Source of the DNA: a virus
Taxonomy: Duplodnaviria > Heunggongvirae > Uroviricota > Caudoviricetes
Virus record (IMG/VR): IMGVR_UViG_3300046518_000157
Location: 24,398 to 88,397 of that record
Strand: one strand, 5' to 3'
DNA: 64,000 nt
Shown here: piece after piece, positions 5,594-56,709 of the stretch
Position numbering within the stretch: position 1 is the first letter of the stretch
Layout: the number at the start of each line of letters is the position of its first letter
Program-made: the position numbers and the translations under genes
Notes under the pieces: generated by a model
The model's database searches: none
Told to the model about the DNA's origin: nothing
What the model saw: the letters and a program-made list of their open reading frames with translations, nothing else

Positions 5594-7252
5594 TTACAGG
5601 TTGCCAGCAATGAATTCCGAAATGAACCTCGGAGTTGCAGTATCGAAACCAACCACGTCAAGCATATTGCGGTCAGTCGGATCAGCAATGCTGAAGTTGT
5701 TCACAGCCATACCAACCGTGATCAGCTTAGCTTCAGGCTTGTTCATACCCTGACGATACTTGCGTACCGCTTGGAACACGTGTTGGCCGCCAGACCACGT
5801 TTCGTTATCCGTGTAAACACAGACAGCGTCAACGTCCCACTTATGTTGAAGCGCATACTCGAACGGCAATGCACAATTCGTACCACCGAAGTTGTGCGCA
5901 CGAACCTTACCACACGCCGTAGCCAAAGTATCTTTGGATGTGATCCCGAGATCCTTAAAGCCATTAGCGCCGCTCGTGAAACCACGGATCTCAGTCCACG
6001 GCTCTGTGCGAGCGGTGACCATAGCCATGATTGCCGTACCTTCAGCACAGCTCAACAGAGGCGTATTGCTGATCGGAGCACTCATTGAACCCGATACATC
6101 CAGGCCCAACAGAATGTTCTTACCGGACGGCTCTATCGCTTCAAACGAAACATAGAACGCATCTTCCAGATCAGCCACAATGGTACGGGCCGGAGTCCAT
6201 ACGAGTGAACCCTTATCGCCACGGCCTTGCGCGTAGATCTTCTGCGCAACTACGATTGACATCGGATGCAGACGTTCCTTGCGGATGGCTTCAACATCGT
6301 GGAGCTTGGCAGATACAATCTTGCTCGTTTCCGAGAAAGGCTTGATCAAACCAACTGCCGTGAGCTTGTTCAGGTTACGAACCAGCGCACCCAGACCCAT
6401 GTGAGGCACAAGAGCTTCCCAAACCTTCGGGTCATTCTTCTGCTCATTCGGAATCATTTCGTGCGTGAGCTTGAAATCCTGGATCAGCTTAATCAATGTC
6501 TTCGTATCTGCAGTCTTGGCTTGCTCTGCAGCAATCAGAAGTTGAGGCACGAGATCGCCTTGCGACAGCGACTCTGCACCCTTGTTGATAAACTTGTACA
6601 GGTTCTGACGAACCGGATCGGTGCCAGGCTTGACGTGAGCCAGACGCATGATGTCCTTGTGGGACCAGCCGTCACGTTGCTTGTACTTTACGATCTGGAA
6701 CGCAAGCTTATCGGTATCCTTTGAGGAATACCAGTTCTGAACTACATTCTTGAGCGAACGGCCCCAACCACGCATACCGTTTGCGAATGCAACGAAGTGC
6801 ATGAAGTGCGTGCCAGTACGAGCCACGAGATTCAGCTTATCCTTCGCATACAGCTTGGTTGCCACGTCGCCGTGGGTGAAGACCAGAGCCATGACCAGAA
6901 GCGCATAGTCATTGTTCTTTGCACGGCCAGCTTGGCTGATCTCTACCACACGATCAACCACAACCTTGCCATTTGCCTTGATGAGCTTCACGATCTCATC
7001 AGTGTTCTGCTTCGTGATATCCTTTTCGCTAGCGTAGAACGTACCGCCGCTCGTGCCGATGATAAGGAATCGATCCAGCTTTTGAAGGCCAGAGATCTCA
7101 AATACAAAGCCGCCAGCGTTGTTCTTGACCTGAGCTACCGGAGCGTTGCCAGCCGGGCGATTCTGCGGCGTGGTACGTGCAACAGTACGGGTATTGGTAT
7201 TCTTTGCGAGGGTATTGAATGACATTTGAGGCTCCTTAAGTTTAGGGAACAA
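5594..7252 (-). CDS. rsr: Ro60/Rsr ortholog (TROVE domain plus C-terminal vWA domain)
   Basis: RFLIIGTSGGTFYASEKD...ISQAGRAKNNDYALLVMALV matches the Ro60 TROVE signature (human Ro60 FLCFGSEGGTYY...[20 protein letters not shown]). A vWA MIDAS motif (LLGLDVSGSM) is present. RBS GGAG sits upstream of the ATG. Confidence 0.8.
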   Translation of the reverse strand: MFPKLKEPQMSFNTLAKNTNTRTVARTTPQNRPAGNAPVAQVKNNAGGFVFEISGLQKLDRFLIIGTSGGTFYASEKDITKQNTDEIVKLIKANGKVVVDRVVEISQAGRAKNNDYALLVMALVFTHGDVATKLYAKDKLNLVARTGTHFMHFVAFANGMRGWGRSLKNVVQNWYSSKDTDKLAFQIVKYKQRDGWSHKDIMRLAHVKPGTDPVRQNLYKFINKGAESLSQGDLVPQLLIAAEQAKTADTKTLIKLIQDFKLTHEMIPNEQKNDPKVWEALVPHMGLGALVRNLNKLTAVGLIKPFSETSKIVSAKLHDVEAIRKERLHPMSIVVAQKIYAQGRGDKGSLVWTPARTIVADLEDAFYVSFEAIEPSGKNILLGLDVSGSMSAPISNTPLLSCAEGTAIMAMVTARTEPWTEIRGFTSGANGFKDLGITSKDTLATACGKVRAHNFGGTNCALPFEYALQHKWDVDAVCVYTDNETWSGGQHVFQAVRKYRQGMNKPEAKLITVGMAVNNFSIADPTDRNMLDVVGFDTATPRFISEFIAGNL

Positions 7253-7265
7253 AGTTTAAATCGAC

Positions 7266-7305
7266 TAAAAAAAGAAGGTCTGAATCCAAGATGGAAACAG
7301 ACCTT
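7266..7305 (-). terminator. Rho-independent terminator at the 3' end of the tRNA-like ncRNA block
   Basis: 9-bp stem gaaggtctg/cagaccttc followed, on the minus strand, by a T7 run. Confidence 0.55.
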
Positions 7306-7689
7306 CGGGTACTTCTAACTTACCACATGTGGTGCTGAACTGGGGACATCTAGGGATCCTGGTTACCAGGGCCCTGGAGATGCTCCTCGTGCTCATCATC
7401 TCCGCTCCAGTAGAGGCGTAGCCGACACTGGGCGGAAAGCTATAACTTAGAGTTACTCTAAGCCAGCAATCTAACAACTGCTTGAGATACGTAAGTCTAG
7501 TGGTACTGCGGTCATGACCTGACCTCATGCTGGGCTGTAAAGCGACCCAGCGGATCTCCGGCTGTAGTGGAGTAGCGCAAGACGTAGCGCAGCGGAGTCT
7601 TGTGGTACGCAACGGAAGCGGGAAGTTGATACCTACAGAGTTACTCTATAGTCACTTTCCAAACTGCAAAGTTAAATACGAAAGGTCAT

Positions 7690-7835
7690 GATGGGGATAC
7701 GGGCAAAAGGCGTGCTAGAAGATTTTACGTGCTCTATCCGCTAAGCTATACAACCCTCAAGGCTGCAGTTGGATTCGAACCAACGCCACGACTTCCGAAT
7801 AGTGATAATCTAACACTAACGGCCCGTAAAGAGGA
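7690..7835 (-). ncRNA. Y-RNA-like tRNA mimic, unit 1 (permuted tRNA-like domain)
   Basis: Minus strand carries a T-arm (GTTGG-TTCGAAT-CCAAC, plus 7772-7790), then a closed 7-bp acceptor-like stem-loop (TGCAGCC-ttgag-GGTTGTA), then TA, then a D-arm (GCTT-AGCGGATA-GAGC, plus about 7735-7755). It is preceded by a GGGCCGTT...GATTATC element. Confidence 0.5.
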
Positions 7836-7899
7836 AGTGAGCAAATGAAAGTGATCTGGAGGAAATCTTAAAAGGATAATCCAAATCGAAACGGCTCAC

Positions 7900-8045
7900 A
7901 AAATTGAAGCTGAACAAAAGGCGTACTGGAATTTTTAGCGCTCTACCAACTGAGCTATGCGGCAACCCGTAAGGCAACCACAGAAGGACTCGAACCTTCG
8001 ACCTCTCTATTAACAGTAGATAAACCAATACAAGCGGTTCAGCGA
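7900..8045 (-). ncRNA. Y-RNA-like tRNA mimic, unit 2
   Basis: Minus strand carries a T-arm (GAAGG-TTCGAGT-CCTTC, plus 7988-8005), then an acceptor-like stem closed by an 11-nt loop (TGTGGTT...TGCCGCA), then TA, then a D-arm (GCTC-AGTTGGTAG-AGC, plus 7933-7960). There is no anticodon arm. Confidence 0.5.
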
Positions 8046-8289
8046 AACTGAGAAAACGAACAAATGTTTGCCAAGGGAGATACTGGATTCACCAGCTTAG
8101 CTTTAGCTCAAGCAGAGTACAACAATGTTAACCCTCTTGAAGTATCTCTCGTTTCCGAGTACTGCTGATACGACTGTCGTTTAACTTTCCGATAGTAGAT
8201 AACCCTTAATGCGTTCGGTTCGTTTGAAAATTGATACGGGCAAAGAAATGAAACTAGGGGAATCAGTAAGAGGGATAACCTAGCATCGA

Positions 8290-8445
8290 ACGGCCCGTGA
8301 AATGGGAATGGACAAGTAATCGAATGGATCTGGAATCGCTGTGTTTACCAATTTCACCAACCCCGCAACTGCAGCGGAGTACAGGACTCGAACCTGTAAT
8401 TTGCGATTTGGGTTTAGATAAACCATTCTATCGGTCCATGAACTT
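8290..8445 (-). ncRNA. Y-RNA-like tRNA mimic, unit 3
   Basis: Minus strand carries a GGACCGA...GGTTTATC 5' element, a T-arm (ACAGG-TTCGAGT-CCTGT, plus 8381-8400), a 7-bp closed acceptor-like hairpin (ACTCCGC-tgcagtt-GCGGGGT), then TG and a D-arm-like GTG-AAATTGGTAAA-CAC. The 3' tail can pair with the 5' element with an internal loop. Confidence 0.5.
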
Positions 8446-8566
8446 TAATTCAGGCACTGACTCTTTAGAATCAATGCGAGGATTAAAGCGAGGGTGAGCA
8501 AAAAGAATAATGCTGGGGAGTAATCACCAATTGATAACCCAACATAAGAACGGCTCACTAAGGTTA

Positions 8567-8575
8567 TTATACCAT
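8567..8575 (-). promoter_or_regulatory. Variant of the recurring promoter-like motif (minus aTGGTATAAt) inside the ncRNA block
   Basis: Resembles the TTGGTATAAG motif found upstream of most genes; oriented to drive minus-strand transcription through the tRNA-like modules. Confidence 0.35.
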
Positions 8576-8699
8576 TACTTCTTAAATTATTGAAAGCGAA
8601 TTTTGAACTGGAAGATTTTTTGGCAGATAATCCAATTCGACGGCTCTCGAAACTTTTACAACTATAAGCTTGAACACATTCTGTGCAGAACCTACGACG

Positions 8700-9200
8700 G
8701 TCTCTTCCAACCAGGGGTGCCTGGCCAAGAGGACGACGTCGTACCACAGCTCCAGAATTAGCTTTACCTAGCTACAAGCTAGGTAGAGTCTTTGCTTTGC
8801 CTTTCGGAAAAGCAACGTAGAGCACTGTTGCAGATACTCTCTGGCTTCCAACTTAACCCTTTCCCTAAAGAACGGATATCGCTATTGAACCAGTTTGATA
8901 CTTCAAACTCTGTGCGACCCGAAGGTCGTTGTTCATGATGAACTCATGCGGTGCTTGATGTCCATCACCTGCAGCTCATAACTTATAGTTAACTATATTA
9001 GATGAGCTGTTCTCGAACCCAGAGCATCTCGGTCCCTGGGTTTCGCTGCAGGCGAAGACAACTTTCGAAGAATGTTACATACTTCTAGTAACGTTGTCGT
9101 TACTTCTATACTTCATCATGCCCCCAAAAGGGGTTCAAAAAGCAATTCTGTAGGATAACCCCAGGTTGCTCAATCAAGGGAAGGAGAAAATGTCCTACTC
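8700..9200. ncRNA. Highly structured non-coding region (nested stems with UUCG/GNRA-type tetraloops); strand and boundaries uncertain
   Basis: Nested inverted repeats include cctgcag.../...ctgcagg, cagctcat/atgagctg, cgaacccag/ctgggtttcg, cgacc-cgaa-ggtcg and ccagg-ggtg-cctgg. No ORF with any coding signature. Confidence 0.35.
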
Positions 9201-9214
9201 ACCATGCACAGCTA

Positions 9215-9385
9215 TTACGTCAACATCGAGAGTCTATCACGAGTATTGTCAGTAAGCCAACAACGTGGAAACTCTAGTGATGTGATTTCGGGATTGTCCT
9301 TAGTCGCCAGGTATTTACCCTGAGTATCTTCGATCAGAGCAAAGCCTTCTTCGTACTCTACAACGCTAATGATTTCATTAAACAT
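9215..9385 (-). CDS. Possible 57-aa small ORF (MFNEIISVVEYEEGFALIEDTQGKYLATKDNPEITSLEFPRCWLTDNTRDRLSMLT)
   Basis: Hand-translated; below the ORF-track length cutoff. Confidence 0.2.
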   Translation of the reverse strand: MFNEIISVVEYEEGFALIEDTQGKYLATKDNPEITSLEFPRCWLTDNTRDRLSMLT

Positions 9386-9411
9386 TTTGAATCGCCCTCT
9401 GTTGTTCCCGA

Positions 9412-9450
9412 GATAAAAAACAGAAAGGAGCGTAGCTATATATACGCTCC
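9412..9450 (-). terminator. Rho-independent terminator downstream of the HTH gene
   Basis: Hairpin ggagcgtagc-tatata-tacgctcc followed, on the minus strand, by CTTTCTGTTTTTTAT. Confidence 0.5.
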
Positions 9451-9484
9451 GTCGAATACTACTATAAGCGATTTATTCTTTTTC

Positions 9485-19991: not shown

Positions 19992-21398
19992 TTATATTGC
20001 AGCGTTCCTGCGAACTTCATTGAACGTCAGTTCCTTCACGAGCTTACCACCAGTGTACACGACTTCGAGATGATCGTCACGACCCATTGCATTTTCACGA
20101 CGGATCGTAGTCAGTTCACCGCTTTCGTCACTGACAAGTGCCAGACGCCCCTTCTTGCTAGTCTTGCCACCAGCAACAGGATCCTTGTACACGTCATTCC
20201 ACTTGCCATCGATTTGAATTGCCGAAGCCTTCATTGCAAAGCCAAACGTATCACGGTCAAGCTTCTGGTGAAGAGCACCACCCATACCGAATGCAACGTT
20301 CTCAGCACTGAAACCATCCATCTTCAGAGCTGTGAGAATAGCTGCGATTGAGATCGGGTTTACACCGTCGCCTTGGATGACACGAACCTTGTTCAGGACT
20401 TTGAACCCTTTACCGTTCGTCGCGTATCCGAACTTGTCTGCGAGAATCCCAACAACCGTCCTAACAACCGACACCGGATCTCCGGAATCAGGTCTAACAA
20501 CGAGAGTACCAGGCAAAGCAAGGACAAAATCACGAAGGGTATCGCCCCAGACGTTTTTGACAGCATTAAAGATGTCGTAACTATCAGAGACAACTGCGAA
20601 AAGGCCACTGCCGAACTTCTCAGCCATATTACGATATGCGTCCGCTTCTCCTGAACGCCCCCAACTAGTAATAGTACTATGCTCAGCAGCAGGGATGCTA
20701 AACCCAAGAGAATCACGTTCTGCTCCGTAGAATTGATGAGCGTACTCCATGCCGAGCATGGTGTCCGTACCCATGAAGTTCACCAAGTGTGCGGCACCAG
20801 CAATAGCAGAAGTTTCTGCAGAACTAGCACCACGAGCACCGAAGTCATGAAGCTTAAAAGGAAGCTCGTCAAGCGGCTTATCGCACGTATCGACCAGTCC
20901 TTTGAAGATGATTTCTTTACAGTGACGGCTGATCGTCGCAACTGTGGTACCAAACCAGGCCGCACGAAGGATTTGCGTTTCATAGAATGAACCCATCCAA
21001 AGCATTTCGGGATCGTGACATTCGACGTCAATGATAGCATTGCCGATAGGCACTTGCGTACCTTCAGCTACAGCACGGATCGTGATAGGCGCACGACCTC
21101 CGTACACTTCCACCACTTTACGGAATGCGCCTTCTGCAAACGGCTCTCCGTGAAGCTTACAGATACGTCCTGCTTCAATCACGTCGTCAAGCGCAATCGG
21201 AGTCAGAAGGTGATCCTTGATGTAGCCTTGAAGGCCAAACGGAGTTACGTGTGTGATACCGAAACCGCTATTGTCCTTACGGGGTTCTACGTAAGAAGAC
21301 AGAGCAGTTGCACCAGCCGGGTATTGCAGGAAATGGCTGTGCTTGTATGAATCGGTATTGAGAAGCGGATTGATTTTGAATTGTGACATTATTAACAC
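19992..21398 (-). CDS. nadV: Nicotinamide phosphoribosyltransferase (NAMPT/NadV)
   Basis: LLNTDSYKHSHFLQYP, KLHDFGARGASS, SIPAAEHSTITSWG, VVSDSYDIFNA, RPDSGDP, VIQGDGV and KKGRLAL all match NAMPT conserved blocks. Confidence 0.85.
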   Translation of the reverse strand: MLIMSQFKINPLLNTDSYKHSHFLQYPAGATALSSYVEPRKDNSGFGITHVTPFGLQGYIKDHLLTPIALDDVIEAGRICKLHGEPFAEGAFRKVVEVYGGRAPITIRAVAEGTQVPIGNAIIDVECHDPEMLWMGSFYETQILRAAWFGTTVATISRHCKEIIFKGLVDTCDKPLDELPFKLHDFGARGASSAETSAIAGAAHLVNFMGTDTMLGMEYAHQFYGAERDSLGFSIPAAEHSTITSWGRSGEADAYRNMAEKFGSGLFAVVSDSYDIFNAVKNVWGDTLRDFVLALPGTLVVRPDSGDPVSVVRTVVGILADKFGYATNGKGFKVLNKVRVIQGDGVNPISIAAILTALKMDGFSAENVAFGMGGALHQKLDRDTFGFAMKASAIQIDGKWNDVYKDPVAGGKTSKKGRLALVSDESGELTTIRRENAMGRDDHLEVVYTGGKLVKELTFNEVRRNAAI

Positions 21399-21442: not shown

Positions 21443-22600
21443 TTAGATACCAAGCATCTTGCGAATGATCGATGAGTGATCTTCGAAGATCAGTTCAGCG
21501 TGACTTAGTACATAGTCGATCTCGTACCAGTCTGTAGCCTTTTGCAAAGCGGTGCTTGCGACTGCATCGTCGCCACCCTTTACCTTAGGAAGCCCCGGCT
21601 TTTTGTCCGACTTATCCAGGTCAAAAAGAAAAGCGTGCGAAATAGTGCGCCCACGCAAACTACGGCCAGGATGATCAAAAACAACACCGGCAGACATACT
21701 ACCGCTAAGAAGACCTCTTGGAAGGTCAATCGAAGTTTCCTCTTGTAATTCACGGATCGCCGCATCTTCAAGCCTTTCATTTTGTTCCAGGAATCCTCCG
21801 GGTAATGCAAGGAGTCCTTCCCCCGGTGCAGCTTTACGCTTCACCATCAAAATATGACCAGCCTTCTTGACAATCGCATCGACAGTCACAAAGGTAGGTG
21901 CATACGGTGCTGCTTTCCAGGAGTCTTTGTACTTCTGCACCATCTTGTATTCACGTCCAAGACGCAGATACTCCGGAGTTTTGATGAACTCCTTGATGAA
22001 GCTAAAAGTGTACTCCGGAACCAAACTTTTGAGAAGCTCAATGAAACCAGGCTTCTCAAAGATTACTTCACGGATAGCTGTAGCATCAAAGCCAAGCTTG
22101 ACTTCGTCTACTGCAACGTAATCGTACTGCGGAAAGAGATCAAGGTAGTACGAGCTTTCGTCTTTCTTGTTACCGACGATTGCAACCTTGCTTTTTACAT
22201 CTTTGTCTGTCCAACCCTTTCCTGCCAAGAGAACAGTTGCTACTTCGTTTTGCACGGAAGTAACCCACTCATCATCTGAGTAGAGGTTATCCACAAGCGG
22301 AGCCGTGAAAATGTTCGAAGTACCAGCCGCTTGAATAACCATTTGCGAACGTTCATCGTACGTAAATGGATTCTTGATAGTGCGTGGTGCGTGCGAAGAA
22401 CCGATAAGAACCAATACCTTGTCAGCCACCATGAACGCCTTATTCAAAAGGATCTGGTGACCTACATGCAAGGGTTCGAAACGACCAATGACTACAGCCA
22501 GGTCGTATTGATTTTCTTCTGTGGATACTGCAAGTTGTTTACTGCCAAAAGTAGCTGCGTACATTTCAGCCACTTCATGATAAAGTTTACTATGTGACAT
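21443..22600 (-). CDS. nadM: Bifunctional NMN adenylyltransferase/ADP-ribose pyrophosphatase (NadM-Nudix)
   Basis: N-terminal nucleotidyltransferase motif VIGRFEPLHVGHQ (HxGH) and C-terminal Nudix box LPGGFLEQNERLEDAAIRELQEETSI. Confidence 0.8.
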   Translation of the reverse strand: MSHSKLYHEVAEMYAATFGSKQLAVSTEENQYDLAVVIGRFEPLHVGHQILLNKAFMVADKVLVLIGSSHAPRTIKNPFTYDERSQMVIQAAGTSNIFTAPLVDNLYSDDEWVTSVQNEVATVLLAGKGWTDKDVKSKVAIVGNKKDESSYYLDLFPQYDYVAVDEVKLGFDATAIREVIFEKPGFIELLKSLVPEYTFSFIKEFIKTPEYLRLGREYKMVQKYKDSWKAAPYAPTFVTVDAIVKKAGHILMVKRKAAPGEGLLALPGGFLEQNERLEDAAIRELQEETSIDLPRGLLSGSMSAGVVFDHPGRSLRGRTISHAFLFDLDKSDKKPGLPKVKGGDDAVASTALQKATDWYEIDYVLSHAELIFEDHSSIIRKMLGI

Positions 22601-52981: not shown

Positions 52982-55402
52982 TTAAAGACGCGGATCCATT
53001 TCTTTCTCTTGGTTGAGTTGCGAGATCATCTTCACAATCAACTCAGTCATTGCAGGACCGTTGTCAGCCGAAAGCATCTTCGTTGCCAGTTCGAACTCCT
53101 TGATAGAGACCTTCAGTTTACCACCAACTCGCTTCTGCTTGCACAGTGCTTCGTAGCGACGTTTGTAGTCGAAGCCATAGACGAGAGTCAGGTAATTTTC
53201 ATTCCGGACTTTCATATACGGTGCTACGTCTTCAGGTCCGGCGAGAGGTTTAATGACAACACCCTCCATGCCGTGTTCGATAGTCAGTTCCTTGAAGAAG
53301 TTTTCAGCCATTTGCAGCTGGCTCTCATCATCGAGATCGATGACCAGCCAGTCATCCCCATTCACTTCATCGAATGAGTCAGCTTGTTCAACGCGAGTAA
53401 ATACATTGCCATCGATTTTCAGAATTGCAAACGGCTTGTAATATGGCTCGCCAGTTGCGGAGTACAGATTCAGCGTATCCGAAAACGTCTTCAGATCGTT
53501 CTCAAGCAAATCCTGAGCATCGATCTTCTGCTTAAAGTCAAGCTTAGCAAATTCTTCGTCCTGAGCAAGTGTCGAAAGCTCATAGTGTACAAGACCTTCA
53601 TACGCTTTGAACTGCTCTTCAACAAGACCAGTACCAAGAGTCGTCCACGGCAGAAGCTCACCGTCCAGAATAAGTTCATCGAACGAATTCGGAAGGAACT
53701 TTTCTTCATACTCAGCAAGAAGCTTCTGAAGCATAACAGTAAGCTCTTCTGTCATGCGAATCTTGAATCCATTTCTGGAAACAAGGAAACACTTCTCCGG
53801 TTGACCGTGATACAGATACGCCTGACAACGTGAGCCCATGTACTTCGGTTGAATAGCAACCTGATCTACACCCTTGTCTTTGAAGTACTTAAGACCAGCT
53901 TCAAGGCTTTCGATCTTACCTTCGGTTGACGGAGCCGGAGCCATCGTACCAGAAATGTACTTAATGCCGTTCTTCAGCGTACGATTCAAAAACTTCATGT
54001 CGTCTGGAGACAACTTATAATCATAAATGCTGAAGGGACGCTCCTTCAAACCGATAGGTACGGTCAAGTCAGACTTCAACTCTTTTTGATGCTCGACCAG
54101 CGACTCGGTCTTGACATCGACGTAAACATATCGATTGTTTTTGTACGAAAACGCAGTAAGCTTGTTACCGTACACTGCTCCGGTATCCAGGAAGATCTTG
54201 TTACGGAACTCAATCTTACCGGCATTGTGAGCAACGTGACCGAATACATGAATAGGATGGTTACGAACAGCCTGATCGAAGATGAACTTGTACGCTTCAC
54301 GATAGTCTTTATCACGACGACCGAAAAGATTACGCTGCGCCTTAAGTGCATCATTGCTCAGCTTACCCAGATACTTGTTTTCACAAGGAGCATGGGTTAC
54401 ATACACGGTTCGTATATCCCGTCCAAATACTTTCAGGAACGGAGTAGAGTGATTGTCAAACAAGTCAACAAGCACGGCGGCAAGGTCAGGACGTTCCAGG
54501 AGAACCTTAAGTGAAGACATATACTTAGCCTCCAGTTCAAGATCAGGATTTTTGATTTCGCCCTTGATACGCTTCACAGCGTAGCTCTCATGGTTTCCGT
54601 GAATGATACGGCCACCTTCGTCAACAAACTTTGAAACCAGCCGAAGCATGTTCTCCGTGTCATTGCCTTTGTCTAGATAATCACCTACAAGAACGTTGAT
54701 ACTGTCCTTAGGCAACTTCTCCAGCATTTCAGTAAGACCCTTAACGTGCTCATGGGTATCACCGATGATGTTCAGCTCTTTGTTCGAAGTCAAGTACAAG
54801 CTGCTCTTGGCATAAACATCGAGGTCTTTGATTTCAACTTCGATATCAGCCCAGTACTTCGGATCACGTTCACGGATACGGATGTTTCCGTCGTGTTCTT
54901 TTCGGCCAAGGTTAGGAAGAACGTGCTGCTTAAAACGAGCTGCACTGCTGTCTACTACTAGCTTTTCTTCCGGCGTAGATTCAGACGAATATGACTTATT
55001 GGTGTACTCGAAAGTAACCAGTTCAGTACGATACTCGTTGGTTTCCGCAAGAGTCCTGACTTTCTTTCGGAACTCGTCGTTCATGCCAGTCGTATCAACG
55101 ATCACGAACTCGCTGTTGACAGGGAACATGATCGCAGCTTCAAGTTTCGCCATCAAGACCTTAAACGCGGCCTCTGAAGCCTCCGCCATGAGCGGGGAAT
55201 ACCGATGGAGGTTCTTATGGCCGTAAAGGCTCTCACGCTCGGAATCGGAGCTGATAATAGGAATTGCACAGCTCGCTCCAAGCCCTGCTTTGGCCATTTC
55301 TTCGCCAAGCGCAAGTTGAAGTTGGTGTGAGAACGTGCTCTTACCGCACATCGAAGGTCCGACGAGAATAAAAACGGTATGGAGCTTAGTTTCGATTTTC
55401 AT
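52982..55402 (-). CDS. pnkp: Polynucleotide kinase-phosphatase with a C-terminal ligase-like domain (bacterial Pnkp-type RNA repair enzyme)
   Basis: N-terminal P-loop (LVGPSMCGKST), a central calcineurin-like phosphoesterase (IIGDTHEH, GDYLDKGND, HGNHE), and a ~350-aa C-terminal domain with a candidate nucleotidyltransferase lysine (QPKYMGSR). Confidence 0.7.
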   Translation of the reverse strand: MKIETKLHTVFILVGPSMCGKSTFSHQLQLALGEEMAKAGLGASCAIPIISSDSERESLYGHKNLHRYSPLMAEASEAAFKVLMAKLEAAIMFPVNSEFVIVDTTGMNDEFRKKVRTLAETNEYRTELVTFEYTNKSYSSESTPEEKLVVDSSAARFKQHVLPNLGRKEHDGNIRIRERDPKYWADIEVEIKDLDVYAKSSLYLTSNKELNIIGDTHEHVKGLTEMLEKLPKDSINVLVGDYLDKGNDTENMLRLVSKFVDEGGRIIHGNHESYAVKRIKGEIKNPDLELEAKYMSSLKVLLERPDLAAVLVDLFDNHSTPFLKVFGRDIRTVYVTHAPCENKYLGKLSNDALKAQRNLFGRRDKDYREAYKFIFDQAVRNHPIHVFGHVAHNAGKIEFRNKIFLDTGAVYGNKLTAFSYKNNRYVYVDVKTESLVEHQKELKSDLTVPIGLKERPFSIYDYKLSPDDMKFLNRTLKNGIKYISGTMAPAPSTEGKIESLEAGLKYFKDKGVDQVAIQPKYMGSRCQAYLYHGQPEKCFLVSRNGFKIRMTEELTVMLQKLLAEYEEKFLPNSFDELILDGELLPWTTLGTGLVEEQFKAYEGLVHYELSTLAQDEEFAKLDFKQKIDAQDLLENDLKTFSDTLNLYSATGEPYYKPFAILKIDGNVFTRVEQADSFDEVNGDDWLVIDLDDESQLQMAENFFKELTIEHGMEGVVIKPLAGPEDVAPYMKVRNENYLTLVYGFDYKRRYEALCKQKRVGGKLKVSIKEFELATKMLSADNGPAMTELIVKMISQLNQEKEMDPRL

Positions 55403-56709
55403 GCTTGATCCTTGTTCTTAGTTACTACCACCATCGTCGAAGTAGCAATGTTATTTACACTATCACCGATTCCTTGAACAGAAATAGAGATTGCATGACC
55501 TTCCGAAACATTCCAGAACCAGTCACCGAATTCTTTAAGGCCCGGCTCCCACTTGTGATCATCATGACGGAACTGTGTTTCGTCCATCAGATAGTTCACA
55601 TTGAATTCCTTGTTAGGAACCGTGAGAATCAGCTTGTTGAAGTTAGTCTTCAGCACGGCTTGAATCAGCTCTGCTGCGACATCCTTTTCCATGTGTTCAA
55701 GCACTTCAGTGATGAGTACATCAGCTCCATCGAATAGAGCGCTGCAATCGTCAATTGATTCAGGAGTTGCTGCTTCTTTGAAGGTGATATTCTCAACTCC
55801 TCGACCACTGGCTTTCCCCACGGCGTTCTCACGTACTTCGTCATCCGCTTCATACGCAAGGATTTGTTCATACTTTGCACTGAGCGGGATCGAATAATTG
55901 AGTTCGCCGCACCCAATGTCAATGAGGACCGACCCTCCTCCCAAATGCGGGAAGATAGCCTCTTTACGTTGACTGAGAGTGTCCCCGTGCCAGAGGTTAA
56001 TACTGGGCGTATCGAGCAACGGCTTGTTTTTAGCAAAGGTTTCACGATTCGTAAACACATTCCGTTTAAAGAGGTATCGGATGAAGTAAGGTGCATCGAT
56101 GCGATTAATTGCATTGATGTACTTTTCAATGATATCTCCCTTAAGGTTGACGTAAATGCTCTTTGTCGTAACGCAGAACATCAAGAAAATAACCATTGCT
56201 GCATTCAGAAGATGATGAACACTAGGTCCGACAATGCGAACTTTGTATGCATGACCAGAAATCAGTTCTGCATGAAAGCTGTAGCCTTGATCGAAACCAA
56301 ACGGCCCATTGAAATGTTGCTCCATGTGCCTAAGCGTGCTTGCACTGCGAATCTCAACCGTAGTTTCGAGCCATGCGCTAAAAGGAACACTAGCATCTTC
56401 TTCCTGATGTTCTTTGAACGCAGTTGCCAGGCAGTTCGTCATCAGGCTAATCGGAAGGTACGGCGAAGCATAGCGAGTACGATCAAGATACTCAAACTCC
56501 TGGTCCCGCCCTTCGGCAAATGAGCAGTGCAGAGCATGATCCTTGAACCACAACCTAAAAGCTTGGTCTCCTTCTAGAAACCATCCGTACACTGAACCTT
56601 GTCGGATGGACTTCTTAAACGGATCTTTCGATTCACGAATCGTTGCGGGGTTTTTCTGAATGACCCAAGAAAACTTCGGGTTACTAGACCCAAGAGTAAG
56701 CACTGACAT
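55399..56709 (-). CDS. hen1: Hen1-like RNA 3'-terminal 2'-O-methyltransferase
   Basis: C-terminal Rossmann MTase motif I (VLIDIGCGE) with Hen1-type metal ligands (EVLEH ... RHDDH). A 4-nt overlap couples it to pnkp. Confidence 0.6.
   Translation of the reverse strand: MSVLTLGSSNPKFSWVIQKNPATIRESKDPFKKSIRQGSVYGWFLEGDQAFRLWFKDHALHCSFAEGRDQEFEYLDRTRYASPYLPISLMTNCLATAFKEHQEEDASVPFSAWLETTVEIRSASTLRHMEQHFNGPFGFDQGYSFHAELISGHAYKVRIVGPSVHHLLNAAMVIFLMFCVTTKSIYVNLKGDIIEKYINAINRIDAPYFIRYLFKRNVFTNRETFAKNKPLLDTPSINLWHGDTLSQRKEAIFPHLGGGSVLIDIGCGELNYSIPLSAKYEQILAYEADDEVRENAVGKASGRGVENITFKEAATPESIDDCSALFDGADVLITEVLEHMEKDVAAELIQAVLKTNFNKLILTVPNKEFNVNYLMDETQFRHDDHKWEPGLKEFGDWFWNVSEGHAISISVQGIGDSVNNIATSTMVVVTKNKDQA

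What the first reader, a model, noticed from the sequence alone, without database searches (positions are those of the whole stretch)
5594..9480. Ro60/Rsr gene followed by a ~2.2-kb block of permuted tRNA-like (Y-RNA-like) modules
Gene 5594-7252 is a clear Ro60/Rsr ortholog (TROVE signature plus vWA MIDAS). Directly upstream on the same strand lies a protein-free 2.2-kb region (7253-9480). It contains at least three modules with the order T-arm, then a closed 7-bp acceptor-like hairpin, then TA/TG, then a D-arm. That is a tRNA cloverleaf whose 5' and 3' ends are joined by a loop and which lacks an anticodon arm. This is the architecture reported for bacterial YrlA-type Y RNAs, which are tRNA mimics bound by Rsr. 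The block has its own promoter-like motif (8567-8575) and terminator (7266-7305). Several tandem Y-RNA-like genes next to a phage rsr would be unusual.
Basis: partly seen in the sequence, partly recalled or inferred. Interest (0 to 1): 0.85.

Follow-up and report, generated by a model that had tools for sequence, protein, structure and literature searches.

The report
Phage Ro60 gene with Y-RNA array
A phage carries a Ro60/Rsr RNA-binding protein gene preceded by eight tandem Y-RNA-like genes (three of them tRNA mimics) and four larger structured RNAs of unknown kind, which expands a known RNA–protein partnership rather than revealing a new one.

Summary
The gene at 5594-7225(-) is a Ro60/Rsr ortholog.

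The ~2-kb stretch 5' of it (7226-9214) has no conserved ORF. It is conserved, with compensatory base changes, in six related phage contigs.

It holds eight Y-RNA-like hairpin units, not three. Each has a 6-8 bp lower stem, a 'C-CG' bulge side, an upper stem and then UUAUC.
- Three units carry the T-arm / closed 7-bp acceptor-like stem / TA / D-arm domain that defines YrlA.
- Four are minimal ~60-nt hairpins.
- One carries a different ~110-nt module.

A conserved extended -10 promoter sits 7 nt before unit 2. An intrinsic terminator sits just before rsr. About half of the block is something else: four 180-245-nt structured modules (Z1-Z4) with no Rfam match.

- 9215-9385 is a real 56-aa gene.
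- Tandem Y-RNA arrays of 3-8 units beside rsr are common in 34 distant metagenomic rsr loci, and a published-type mycobacteriophage has three. The array is large but not unique.

The UUAUC motif and bulged C match metazoan Y RNAs and nematode sbRNAs. Distant relatives score below threshold on a nematode sbRNA model.

Verdict: a new variant of a known kind, of moderate interest.

The parts
5594..7225 (-). rsr (Ro60 ortholog), 543 aa from the ATG at 7225. RBS AAGGAG at 7237-7232. The mechanical ORF start is the TTG at 7252.
   Evidence: Pfam TROVE plus vWA_Ro60. PDB 2NVO at 1e-110, and animal Ro60 chains (9NEN, annotated RO60; Xenopus 1YVP) at ~1e-94. The conserved region starts at MSFN. Sequence read.
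7267..7306 (-). Intrinsic terminator (GAAGGTCTG...CAGACCTTC followed by T7), 41 nt before the rsr ATG.
   Evidence: Sequence. Conserved in all loci with compensatory changes, e.g. GAAGGCCTG/CAGGCCTTC in L002.
7316..7498 (-). Z4: structured ~183-nt module, a paralog of Z3. Closing helix GACTTAC..GTAAGT, GUAU on the 5' side and CAUGUGG on the 3' side, and an invariant hairpin AGAGUAACUCU.
   Evidence: Alignment and alifold. CM R2 scores 115 bits. No Rfam match.
7499..7690 (-). Z3: structured ~192-nt module. Closing helix ATGACCT..AGGTCAT, which is TTACCT..AGGTAG in L003.
   Evidence: 135 bits. nhmmer finds it only in the close clade.
7698..7828 (-). U8: YrlA-type Y RNA. T-arm GTTGG-TTCGAAT-CCAAC, closed acceptor-like stem TGCAGCC/GGTTGTA, TA linker, D-arm GCTT-AGCGGATA-GAGC.
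   Evidence: Rfam YrlA partial match, 22.3 bits.
7837..7899 (-). U7: minimal Y-like hairpin, 63 nt.
   Evidence: R1 scores 70.6 bits. Covariation.
7909..8043 (-). U6: YrlA-type Y RNA.
   Evidence: Rfam YrlA 39.8 bits, E=1.3e-6. Arm parse.
8054..8225 (-). U5: Y-type stem (AAACGAAC-CGAACG...GGG-UUAUC) carrying a ~110-nt multi-hairpin module that is not tRNA-like.
   Evidence: alifold gives 41 pairs, 17 of them with compensatory change.
8236..8298 (-). U4: minimal Y-like hairpin.
   Evidence: R1 scores 62.4 bits.
8308..8439 (-). U3: YrlA-type Y RNA, with a TG linker before the D-arm.
8443..8490 (-). Spacer hairpin. The outer part (CTTTAATCC/GGAATTAAAG) is conserved; the inner helix changes on both strands between loci. 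A possible processing site (inferred).
8494..8558 (-). U2: minimal Y-like hairpin. Its first base lies 7 nt after the -10 box.
   Evidence: R1 scores 64.3 bits.
8566..8594 (-). Sigma-70-type promoter: TTCAAT, 17-nt spacer, TGGTATAAT (extended -10).
   Evidence: Sequence. Invariant -10 in all six loci, at a constant 6-7 nt from U2. The only TGnTATAAT in the window. The consensus scan missed it because the -35 matches only 3 of 6.
8592..8648 (-). U1: minimal Y-like hairpin. Its 3' strand overlaps the -35 box.
   Evidence: R1 scores 52.4 bits.
8667..8910 (-). Z2: structured ~244-nt module. Closing helix AGTTTGAA..TTCAAGCT, GUAU on the 5' side and AAUGUG on the 3' side.
   Evidence: alifold on A4 gives 112 pairs, 33 with compensatory change. 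Boundaries.
8911..9120 (-). Z1: structured ~210-nt module. Closing helix CATGATGAA..TTCATCATG, which is ATGACGAA..TTCGTCAT in L009.
9121..9214 (-). Conserved leader with small hairpins, including GAGCAACCTGGGGTTATCC. Role unknown.
9215..9385 (-). Conserved 56-aa protein gene of unknown function, directly 5' of the RNA block in all six related phages.
   Evidence: tblastn 71-84% identity; differences favour the third codon position. No Pfam or PHROG hit.

Best explanation
Coordinates 7226-9214(-) are a polycistronic non-coding RNA locus that supplies the phage's own Ro60/Rsr protein with a set of Y RNAs.

What each unit looks like (shown):
- The RNA's 5' and 3' ends pair into a 6-8 bp lower stem.
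- Next comes an unpaired C followed by G.
- A 5-9 bp upper stem ends in G-UUAUC.
- A pyrimidine-rich 3' internal strand completes the stem.
This is the layout of the Ro60-binding stem of known Y RNAs.

What differs between units (shown): the part attached to the upper stem.
- U3, U6 and U8 carry a tRNA-like T-arm, closed acceptor-like stem and D-arm domain (YrlA type).
- U5 carries a ~110-nt multi-hairpin domain.
- U1, U2, U4 and U7 carry only a small loop.

How it probably works (inferred):
- Transcription from the conserved extended -10 promoter starts at the first base of U2. It runs through U2-U8 and Z3-Z4 to the terminator at 7306-7267.
- An unidentified upstream promoter gives Z1-Z2-U1.
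- rsr has no room for a promoter of its own, so it is probably read by terminator read-through. That would give RNA in excess over protein.
- The precursor is cut in the 8-12-nt U-rich spacers and at the spacer hairpin.
- Each Y RNA binds Rsr through the common stem. Its variable module tethers Rsr to a different partner or gates the Rsr cavity. The models are the D. radiodurans Rsr-Y RNA-PNPase machine and the Thermus phage phiLo Ro60-Yrl-PNPase complex (PMC4201824, PMC12135203).
- The RNP would then reshape, repair or degrade structured RNA during infection. The phage also carries 21 or more tRNA genes and a Pnkp/Hen1 RNA-repair pair.

Shown here: sequence, structure, conservation, covariation and linkage. 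Inferred: transcription start, processing, Rsr binding, partners and role.
For: Linkage and strand:
- The whole array lies directly 5' of rsr on the same strand.

Non-random motif:
- 8 of the 9 CCG-N7-16-G[GAT]TTATC sites in the 64 kb lie in 7810-8643(-).

Structure of the units:
- Each unit folds as stem / internal loop / stem.
- On 16 short units from 5 phages, 97.9% of cells pair, against 26-46% when the partner is slid. 8 of 12 pairs change on both sides.
- On 41 distinct units, including distant loci, 96.9% of cells pair and 11 of 12 pairs change on both sides. That alignment is fitted to the model.

tRNA-like domains:
- All 11 units examined have a 5/5 T-stem with a TTCGAnT loop, a closed stem pairing 6-7 of 7, a two-base linker (TA in 9, TG and TC in one each) and a D-arm with a GG loop. 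Stem sequences differ between units and loci.
- Rfam YrlA scores 39.8 bits, E=1.3e-6. Mycobacteriophage Ava3, from the phage group in which YrlA was first reported, scores 36.1 bits.

Conservation:
- The block is conserved in contigs whose Rsr is 73-99% identical.
- No ORF in it is conserved.

Generality:
- CM R1, built from this clade, finds units beside rsr on the rsr strand in more than 15 distant loci.
- G[GA]TTA[TC]C occurs 85 times on the rsr strand and 17 on the other strand within 1.5 kb upstream or 1 kb downstream of rsr. On inspection of the 85 sites, most are preceded by a GNCGAA-like motif, which is Chen et al.'s proposed Rsr-binding motif (PMC4201824).

Promoter and terminator.

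Precedents:
- A polycistronic Yrn2-tRNA-Yrn1 precursor in D. radiodurans (PMC4201824).
- Three abundant RNAs within 2 kb upstream of an Rsr-like gene in Listeria phage CKA15 (PMC12282133).
Against: - No expression or binding data exist for this phage.
- No unit reaches the Rfam YrlA gathering score (39.8 and 22.3 bits against 69).
- The window's short units match no Rfam Y RNA family at all.
- The canonical GNCGAA...ACUUG Rsr-binding motif is degenerate here. Six of eight units have CGU/CGC in place of CGA, and U-rich 3' strands. Binding to Rsr is therefore less secure than in the distant relatives.
- U1 lies upstream of the only recognisable promoter.
- The four Z modules, about half of the block, are not explained by the Y-RNA model.
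Confidence: 0.85

Rival explanations
1. The tRNA-like pieces are decayed or tandem tRNA genes: the T-arm of one tRNA followed by the D-arm of the next. On this view the region is a degenerating part of the phage's tRNA array, not a set of Y RNAs.
For: - The phage has 21 or more tRNA genes.
- Chen et al. warn that dimeric tRNAs can mimic YrlA in covariance searches (PMC4201824).
- Rfam tRNA gives weak sub-threshold matches here: 17.9 bits and 26.4 bits.
- Distant rsr loci sit inside tRNA arrays.
Against: - ARAGORN finds no tRNA in 7226-9214.
- There is no anticodon arm and no open acceptor stem.
- The stem between the T-arm and the D-arm is a closed hairpin, with the 7 pairs next to the arms conserved and 3-25 further nt between them. 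It is kept by compensatory changes in 11 units.
- Every tRNA-like domain sits inside a covarying Y-type stem.
- Five of the eight units have no tRNA-like part.
- The arrangement is conserved across phages whose Rsr is only 73-80% identical.
Confidence: 0.03
2. The block is a long structured 5' leader that acts in cis as a regulator of rsr, by attenuation or processing control. It would not be a set of trans-acting RNAs.
For: - A terminator lies 41 nt before the rsr ATG, and rsr has no promoter of its own. rsr expression must therefore depend on read-through from the block.
- The block and rsr are always adjacent.
Against: - Eight independent closed hairpins share one motif but carry variable payloads. 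That is not what a single leader looks like.
- The same units occur downstream of rsr in some distant loci (L010, L039, L014), and dispersed kilobases away in L017.
- Rsr's known ligands are exactly such RNAs (PMC4201824).
Confidence: 0.07
3. The units are decoys or sponges. They would not serve the phage Rsr but titrate host factors: host Rsr, tRNA-modifying or tRNA-cleaving defence enzymes, RNase P or the CCA-adding enzyme. Rsr would only stabilise them.
For: - YrlA RNAs are substrates of tRNA-recognising enzymes (PMC4201824).
- The phage invests in tRNA supply and RNA repair, with Pnkp/Hen1 and 21 or more tRNAs. That suggests pressure from host tRNA-targeting defences.
Against: - The domains lack the anticodon loop, which is the usual target of anticodon nucleases.
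- Five units have no tRNA-like part, yet keep the Rsr-type stem.
- Strict co-occurrence with rsr argues that Rsr is the primary partner.
Confidence: 0.05

Closest known systems
YrlA-type bacterial and phage Y RNAs (Rfam RF02553; Chen et al. 2014, PMC4201824)
   Same: - Encoded within 4 kb of rsr on the same strand.
- The RNA's 5' and 3' ends form the Rsr-binding stem.
- The internal domain has a T-arm, a closed acceptor-like stem, U8/A9-like TA and a D-arm, with no anticodon loop.
- Already reported in 22 phages.
   Different: - Scores only 39.8 bits against the curated 69.
- The stem carries CCG(U/A) and UUAUC in place of the Rfam consensus GGCGAAUGC...GGGGAACUA (alignment).
- There are three YrlA-type units in one locus, interleaved with five units that are not tRNA-like.
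'Long hairpin' Y RNAs: S. Typhimurium and M. smegmatis YrlB, D. radiodurans Yrn2 (PMC4201824); Thermus phage phiLo Yrl1/Yrl2 with phage Ro60 (PMC12135203)
   Same: - A second, simpler Y RNA type is encoded beside rsr: a hairpin with a pyrimidine-rich loop.
- Precursors can be polycistronic.
- In phiLo the phage Ro60 binds them and forms a complex with host PNPase.
   Different: - Four such minimal units occur here, rather than one or two.
- No sequence model for YrlB, Yrn2 or Yrl exists in Rfam, so homology could not be tested.
- phiLo Ro60 is only distantly related to this Rsr (E=1e-9).
Metazoan Y RNAs and nematode stem-bulge RNAs (Rfam RF00019, RF01656; PMC4726728, PMC4450293)
   Same: - A lower stem followed by a bulged C.
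- An upper stem that ends in GG.
- UUAUC as the first five bases of the loop. Compare hY4, GGCUGGUC-C-GAUGGUAGUGGG-UUAUC (PMC6096425).
- A pyrimidine-rich 3' side.
- Short units of distant rsr loci match RF01656 end to end at 26-29 bits.
   Different: - The window's own units do not match RF00019 or RF01656.
- The relatives stay below the gathering score of 38.
- The phage units have a bacterial-type promoter and are made as an array, with no Pol III or oligo-U features.
- The published view is that bacterial Y RNAs are not homologous to the vertebrate clades (PMC4726728).
Listeria phage CKA15 (P100-like): abundant RNAs upstream of an Rsr-like gene (PMC12282133)
   Same: Several highly transcribed non-coding regions lie within 2 kb upstream of a phage Rsr-like gene, in the same orientation. 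The authors propose that they are Y RNAs.
   Different: The proposal rests on transcriptomics, and no structure was defined. The relation to the present units was not tested.

Membership tests
YrlA (RF02553 / Chen et al. 2014) | Encoded within ~4 kb of a Ro60/Rsr gene, on the same strand | tested here: met
   The units lie 470-1420 nt 5' of the rsr ATG, all on the minus strand.
YrlA (RF02553 / Chen et al. 2014) | T-arm: 5-bp stem with a 7-nt T-loop (GUUCGAAUC-like) | tested here: met
   U3, U6, U8 and their orthologs pair 5/5, with a TTCGA(A/G)T loop, in 11 of 11 units.
YrlA (RF02553 / Chen et al. 2014) | Closed acceptor-like stem-loop (AS) directly between the T-arm and the D-arm | tested here: met
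   The seven positions flanking the arms pair 6-7 of 7, with 3-25 further nt between them. There are at least six different stem sequences, i.e. compensatory change.
YrlA (RF02553 / Chen et al. 2014) | U8/A9-like linker and a D-arm with GG in the loop | tested here: met
   The linker is TA in 9 units, TG in one and TC in one. The D-stems pair 3-4 of 4, with loops of the form A..GG..A.
YrlA (RF02553 / Chen et al. 2014) | Rsr-binding stem with the GNCGAA(N0-1)G motif on the 5' strand | tested here: inconclusive
   A (G/A)NCG core (GCCG or ACCG) is present in 8 of 8 window units. CGAA occurs only in U5 and CGAU in U3; the rest have CGU or CGC. Distant relatives carry the full motif.
YrlA (RF02553 / Chen et al. 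2014) | Score at or above the Rfam gathering threshold (69 bits) | tested here: not met
   39.8 and 22.3 bits. As a calibration, mycobacteriophage Ava3 reaches 36.1 bits and the distant loci 23-49 bits.
YrlA (RF02553 / Chen et al. 2014) | Bound and stabilised by Rsr; carries tRNA-type modifications | not testable with these tools
   Needs RIP or EMSA and modification mapping.
Metazoan Y RNA / nematode sbRNA (RF00019, RF01656) | Lower stem with a single bulged C, upper stem, and UUAUC at the 5' end of the loop | tested here: met
   All 8 units have this layout; U3 and U6 read UUUAUC. The motif definition comes from PMC4450293 and PMC4726728.
Metazoan Y RNA / nematode sbRNA (RF00019, RF01656) | Match to the family covariance model | tested here: not met
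   The window gives no hit at E<=10, even in 81-nt and 481-nt searches. Relatives L044 and L041 reach 26-29 bits, below the gathering score of 38.
tRNA (RF00005) | Cloverleaf with an anticodon arm and an open acceptor stem | tested here: not met
   ARAGORN finds none in the block. Rfam tRNA gives 17.9 and 26.4 bits, below 29. The arm order is permuted and there is no anticodon arm.
Known large phage-associated ncRNAs (GOLLD, ROOL, others in Rfam 15), considered for Z1-Z4 | Match to any Rfam covariance model | tested here: not met
   Nothing matches across 7306-7697 or 8660-9214 at E<=10, apart from chance hits on the terminator.

The most novel reading that the evidence does not exclude
The minimal rsr-linked hairpins of phages and bacteria may be true homologs of metazoan Y RNAs and nematode sbRNAs. 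They share the lower stem, bulged C, upper stem, UUAUC and a (A)CUUG 3' strand. On this reading the Ro60-Y RNA pair moved between phages or bacteria and eukaryotes as a unit, and UUAUC has an ancestral role tied to Ro60, not a metazoan-specific role in DNA replication. Separately, Z1-Z4 may be a new class of large structured RNAs that work with Rsr.
Probability: 0.3. Interest if true: 0.8.

Novelty: new variant of a known kind. Interest (0 to 1): 0.6.

Why it matters
Ro60-Y RNA particles are conserved from bacteria to humans, and Ro60 is a major lupus and Sjogren autoantigen. What the RNA's variable part does is known for only one or two bacterial cases.

This locus gives eight Y RNAs with one common stem and four kinds of payload, all under one promoter. 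That is a compact natural experiment in how Y RNA modules direct Ro60, and it can be cloned and tested directly.

It also shows that current curated models miss most phage Y RNAs. No unit here, nor in the 15 distant loci scanned at the gathering threshold, reaches the Rfam score.

The metazoan UUAUC motif turns out to be general in rsr-linked phage RNAs. That reopens the question of whether bacterial and animal Y RNAs share ancestry.

The co-occurrence with Pnkp/Hen1 and a large tRNA set points to a phage RNA-maintenance toolkit. This is relevant to defence systems that target tRNA.

Tried and rejected
- Rfam at gathering threshold over the whole window found only tRNAs, all elsewhere.
- Rfam Y_RNA and sbRNA models on the window's short units gave nothing, even in 81-nt and 481-nt searches.
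- A nucleotide search of 50,697 phage records with the whole locus matched only short stretches of rsr at ~70% identity, so no close cultured relative exists.
- A relaxed stem-parsing script (score >=11) proved non-specific, with ~25 spurious hits in the window. I did not use it for counting.
- MAFFT misaligned the D-arm between unit types, so I counted the arms with an explicit parse instead.
- CM R2, built on Z3/Z4, found only its own training sequences. It found neither Z1/Z2 nor anything in 35 distant loci. The 'Z family' therefore rests on motif-level resemblance for Z1/Z2, and it is clade-restricted as far as I searched. nhmmer profiles of both large domains gave the same result.
- Protein coding in the block is rejected. 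The longest ORFs (115 and 100 aa) are not conserved.
- An apparent cluster of G[GAT]TTATC at 17.6-19.6 kb is not hit by R1 and I dropped it.
- The 2020 review of bacterial Ro60 (PMC10870794) and the supplementary tables of Chen et al. 2014 were not available. I therefore could not check how many phages were already listed with several YrlAs.

Full report
**1. What is at the coordinates**

The ORF at 5594-7252(-) is a Ro60/Rsr ortholog.
- Pfam gives TROVE (3.9e-35) and the Ro60 vWA domain (4.9e-54).
- The nearest solved structure is D. radiodurans Rsr, 2NVO (1e-110). Animal Ro60 chains (9NEN, Xenopus 1YVP) follow at about 1e-94.
- The MIDAS DVSGS motif is invariant among relatives.
- The conserved protein starts at MSFN. 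The real start is therefore most likely the ATG at 7225, behind AAGGAG at 7237-7232. The TTG at 7252 is only the mechanical ORF start.

Upstream on the same strand the order is as follows.
- An HTH gene at 9772-9485 with its own terminator at 9450-9427.
- A 56-aa ORF at 9385-9215. It is conserved in every relative, and substitutions favour the third codon position, so it is a real gene.
- 1,989 nt (9214-7226) in which no ORF is conserved between relatives.

**2. The Y-RNA array**

Reading the minus strand shows a recurring signature, (G/A)(G/A)(G/A)C-CG...G(G/A/T)TTATC. The pattern CCG-N7-16-G[GAT]TTATC occurs eight times in 7810-8643(-) and once in the rest of the 64 kb on both strands.

Each occurrence starts a closed hairpin built from:
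- a 6-8 bp lower stem formed by the unit's two ends;
- an unpaired C followed by G;
- a 5-9 bp upper stem that ends just before UUAUC;
- a variable insert;
- a 7-12-nt pyrimidine-rich strand on the 3' side.

The eight units are:

| Unit | Coordinates (-) | Type |
|---|---|---|
| U1 | 8648-8592 | minimal |
| U2 | 8558-8494 | minimal |
| U3 | 8439-8308 | tRNA-like |
| U4 | 8298-8236 | minimal |
| U5 | 8225-8054 | ~110-nt module |
| U6 | 8043-7909 | tRNA-like |
| U7 | 7899-7837 | minimal |
| U8 | 7828-7698 | tRNA-like |

From U3 to U8 the units are separated by only 8-12 U-rich nucleotides. The U1-U2 gap holds the promoter and the U2-U3 gap holds the spacer hairpin.

**3. The tRNA-like domains**

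I parsed these three and their orthologs in four related phages, 11 units in all. Every one has:
- a 5/5 T-stem with a TTCGA(A/G)T loop;
- immediately after it, a closed stem pairing 6-7 of the seven positions next to the arms, with 3-25 further nt between them;
- a two-base linker: TA in nine units, TG in U3 and TC in its L002 ortholog;
- a D-arm pairing 3-4 of 4, with a GG-containing loop.

The stems differ in sequence between units and between phages but stay paired. Examples are ACTCCGC/GCGGGGT, TGCAGCC/GGTTGTA, CAGTGGC/GCTACTG and CGGCAGG/CCTGCTG.

RNAalifold on these units finds the lower stem, the T-arm and the acceptor-like stem, with compensatory change in 14 of 18 pairs.

Rfam's YrlA model matches U6 at 39.8 bits (E=1.3e-6 in 3 kb) and U8 partially at 22.3 bits. 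Both are below the curated 69 bits. That shortfall is normal for phage YrlAs. Mycobacteriophage Ava3 belongs to the group in which phage YrlAs were first reported, and it reaches only 36.1 bits. Distant rsr loci reach 23-49 bits.

ARAGORN calls no tRNA in the block.

**4. Support from relatives**

Rsr relatives with the same block were found in:
- IMG/VR: L001 at 99%, a 144,968-bp contig that is probably the source phage; L002 at 93%; L003-L005 at 73-76%;
- metagenomes: L009 at 80%.

The whole block aligns (L009 read). All six loci (window, L002-L005 and L009) carry the array, with 7-9 units each. Units are gained and lost:
- L002 lacks U6.
- L002, L003 and L009 have an extra unit with only a T-arm.
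- L004 and L005 have U5 split in two, and an HNH endonuclease gene sits where U8 should be.

Covariation in the stems:
- On 16 short units, the two-helix structure pairs in 97.9% of cells, against 26-46% when the 3' partner is slid. Eight of 12 pairs change on both sides.
- A covariance model built from these units (R1) finds nothing else in the 64-kb window.
- On the 41 distinct sequences that R1 collects, including distant loci, 96.9% of cells pair and 11 of 12 pairs show double changes. That alignment is fitted to the model.
- U5's module is also structured, with 17 of 41 pairs showing compensatory change.

**5. Promoter, terminator and transcript layout**

TTCAAT-17 nt-TGGTATAAT lies at 8594-8566.
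- It is the only TGnTATAAT in the window.
- The -10 box is invariant in all six loci and sits a constant 6-7 nt before the first base of U2's lower stem.
- By inference, U2 starts at the transcription start site.
- U1's 3' strand overlaps the -35 box, so U1, together with Z1 and Z2, must come from an unidentified upstream promoter.

Other features of the transcript:
- A long hairpin at 8490-8443 has conserved outer pairs, and its inner sequence changes on both strands between loci. It separates U2 from U3 and could be a processing site (inference).
- The terminator at 7306-7267 is conserved, with compensatory changes.
- Only 41 nt separate the terminator from the rsr ATG. rsr therefore probably depends on read-through (inference).

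**6. The other half of the block**

Coordinates 9120-8667 and 7690-7316 are conserved, with many compensatory pairs: 33 of 112 and 24 of 69. They match nothing in Rfam.

They resolve into four modules:
- Z1, 9120-8911
- Z2, 8910-8667
- Z3, 7690-7499
- Z4, 7498-7316

Z3 and Z4 are clear paralogs. They share:
- a closing helix;
- GUAU after its 5' strand;
- a variable hairpin;
- an invariant AGAGUAACUCU hairpin;
- a GC-rich variable region;
- CAUG(A/U)GG before the 3' strand.

The closing helices show compensatory changes:
- Z3: ATGACCT/AGGTCAT against TTACCT/AGGTAG in L003.
- Z1: ATGATGAA/TTCATCAT against ATGACGAA/TTCGTCAT in L009.

Z1 and Z2 share the closing-helix/GUAU/AUG(A/U)G plan and a hairpin loop G(U/C)AAC. 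I see this only by eye. A covariance model of Z3/Z4 recovers neither Z1/Z2 nor anything in 35 distant rsr loci. nhmmer profiles of both large domains likewise hit only this clade. I cannot say what the Z modules are. The most economical guess is that they are further structured RNAs co-transcribed with the Y RNAs.

**7. How unusual is the array?**

The metagenome scan returned 34 non-redundant rsr loci with 35-45% protein identity.
- R1 finds units on the rsr strand, mostly within 1 kb upstream of rsr, in more than 15 of them.
- Without any model, G[GA]TTA[TC]C occurs 85 times on the rsr strand and 17 times on the other strand within 1.5 kb upstream or 1 kb downstream of rsr.
- On inspection of the 85 rsr-strand sites, most are preceded 12-16 nt upstream by G-N-(C/T)-(C/T)-G-(A/G)-(A/C). 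That is the GNCGAA motif Chen et al. proposed as the Rsr-binding site (PMC4201824).
- Clusters are common: about five sites each in L011, L026, L028 and L032, and four each in L023, L024, L027 and L041. A looser pattern counts seven in L032.
- Several loci carry two or three sub-threshold YrlA matches.
- Many of these loci lie inside tRNA arrays.
- Mycobacteriophage Ava3 has three units in the 485-nt gap before rsr.

The literature I could read describes at least two Y RNAs per bacterium, 355 YrlA candidates in 254 bacteria and 22 phages, and two Yrl RNAs in Thermus phage phiLo (PMC4201824, PMC12135203). I found no description of arrays of five to nine. The 2020 review and the 2014 supplementary tables were not available.

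**8. Resemblance to animal Y RNAs**

Three features are the hallmarks of vertebrate Y RNAs and nematode stem-bulge RNAs (PMC4726728, PMC4450293):
- a bulged C after the lower stem;
- an upper stem ending in GG;
- UUAUC as the first bases of the loop.

Compare hY4, GGCUGGUC-C-GAUGGUAGUGGG-UUAUC-AGAAC (PMC6096425).

In an unbiased scan of all 4,227 Rfam families, two short units of the distant locus L044 match the nematode sbRNA family RF01656 end to end. They score 28.9 and 26.3 bits, with E=4e-4 and 2e-3 in a 331-nt search. A unit in L041 scores 27.9 bits. All three are below the gathering score of 38.

The window's own units have a degenerate 3' strand and CGU in place of CGA, and they do not match.

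The link is therefore indirect: window units to distant units through R1, and distant units to sbRNAs through RF01656. I could not find the UUAUC link to bacterial or phage Y RNAs in the searchable literature. One review states that bacterial Y RNAs are not homologous to the vertebrate clades (PMC4726728). I treat homology as possible but unproven.

**9. Genomic context**

- The phage has no close cultured relative.
- The window also encodes 21 or more tRNAs, including a CUA-anticodon tRNA.
- It encodes a Pnkp/Hen1 RNA-repair pair, an NAD-salvage pair, ribonucleotide reductase, ThyX and family A DNA polymerase.
- A DHH phosphoesterase gene lies just downstream of rsr.
- This fits a role for the Rsr-Y RNA particles in RNA maintenance or turnover during infection. 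The Salmonella rsr-yrlBA-rtcBA operon is a parallel (PMC7790460). That role is inference.

**10. Verdict**

- The locus is richer than described: eight units of three kinds plus four unexplained large modules.
- It is less exceptional than claimed, because arrays are widespread beside rsr in uncultured phages.
- It is a new variant of a known kind.
- The most novel open readings are deep homology with animal Y and stem-bulge RNAs, and the nature of Z1-Z4.

Noticed in passing
window 38676-38751 (-) and 37443-37515 (-): A tRNA with a CUA (amber-reading) anticodon is the best-scoring tRNA in the window (74.8 bits). Beside tRNA-Met is a tRNA-like gene for which ARAGORN reports a 2-nt anticodon. 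A suppressor tRNA could mean that TAG is read through or recoded in some phage genes.
   Followed up: no
window 52982-55402 (-) and 55399-56709 (-): A Pnkp gene (kinase, phosphoesterase and ligase domains) and a Hen1 gene, with overlapping stop and start codons. Together they form a complete bacterial-type RNA repair pair, in the same phage as rsr, the Y-RNA array and 21 or more tRNAs.
   Followed up: partly
window 19992-21398 (-) and 21443-22600 (-): Adjacent genes for NAMPT-like nicotinamide phosphoribosyltransferase and for a cytidylyltransferase-like (possible NMN adenylyltransferase)/Nudix protein. Together these could form an NAD+ salvage pair.
   Followed up: no
window 9215-9385 (-): A 56-aa ORF with no family match. 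It is conserved directly 5' of the RNA block in all six related phages, and substitutions favour the third codon position. It may belong to the rsr/Y-RNA module.
   Followed up: partly
window 7316-7690 (-) and 8667-9120 (-): Four conserved, covarying structured modules of 180-245 nt (Z1-Z4) flank the Y array. Z3 and Z4 are paralogs with an invariant AGAGUAACUCU hairpin. They match nothing in Rfam and occur only in this phage clade. Their function is unknown.
   Followed up: yes
L004 5124-5570 (and the same position in L005): An HNH endonuclease gene occupies the position that unit U8 holds in the other phages. This looks like a homing-endonuclease insertion that replaced a Y RNA gene.
   Followed up: partly
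L044 455-523 and 648-711; L041 419-482: Minimal rsr-linked hairpins in distant metagenomic loci match the Rfam nematode stem-bulge RNA family RF01656 end to end, at 26-29 bits against a gathering score of 38.
   Followed up: partly
L047 (Mycobacterium phage Ava3) 2060-2400: The 485-nt gap before the Ro-like gene of this cultured phage holds three units with GGCCGA...CGGTTA(C/T)C. One of them is the tRNA-like YrlA. None is annotated in the record.
   Followed up: partly
L032 1281-1365: A tmRNA-like match at 46.4 bits, against a gathering score of 47, lies immediately after a 7-8-unit Y-RNA array that is interleaved with tRNA genes.
   Followed up: no
window U2/U7 and U4/U8: U2 and U7 have identical lower stems (GTGAGC/GCTCAC), and so do U4 and U8 (ACGGGC/GCCCGT). 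The U4/U8 identity recurs in L003 with a different sequence (ACGGAC/GTCCGT). This suggests unit duplication or concerted evolution.
   Followed up: no
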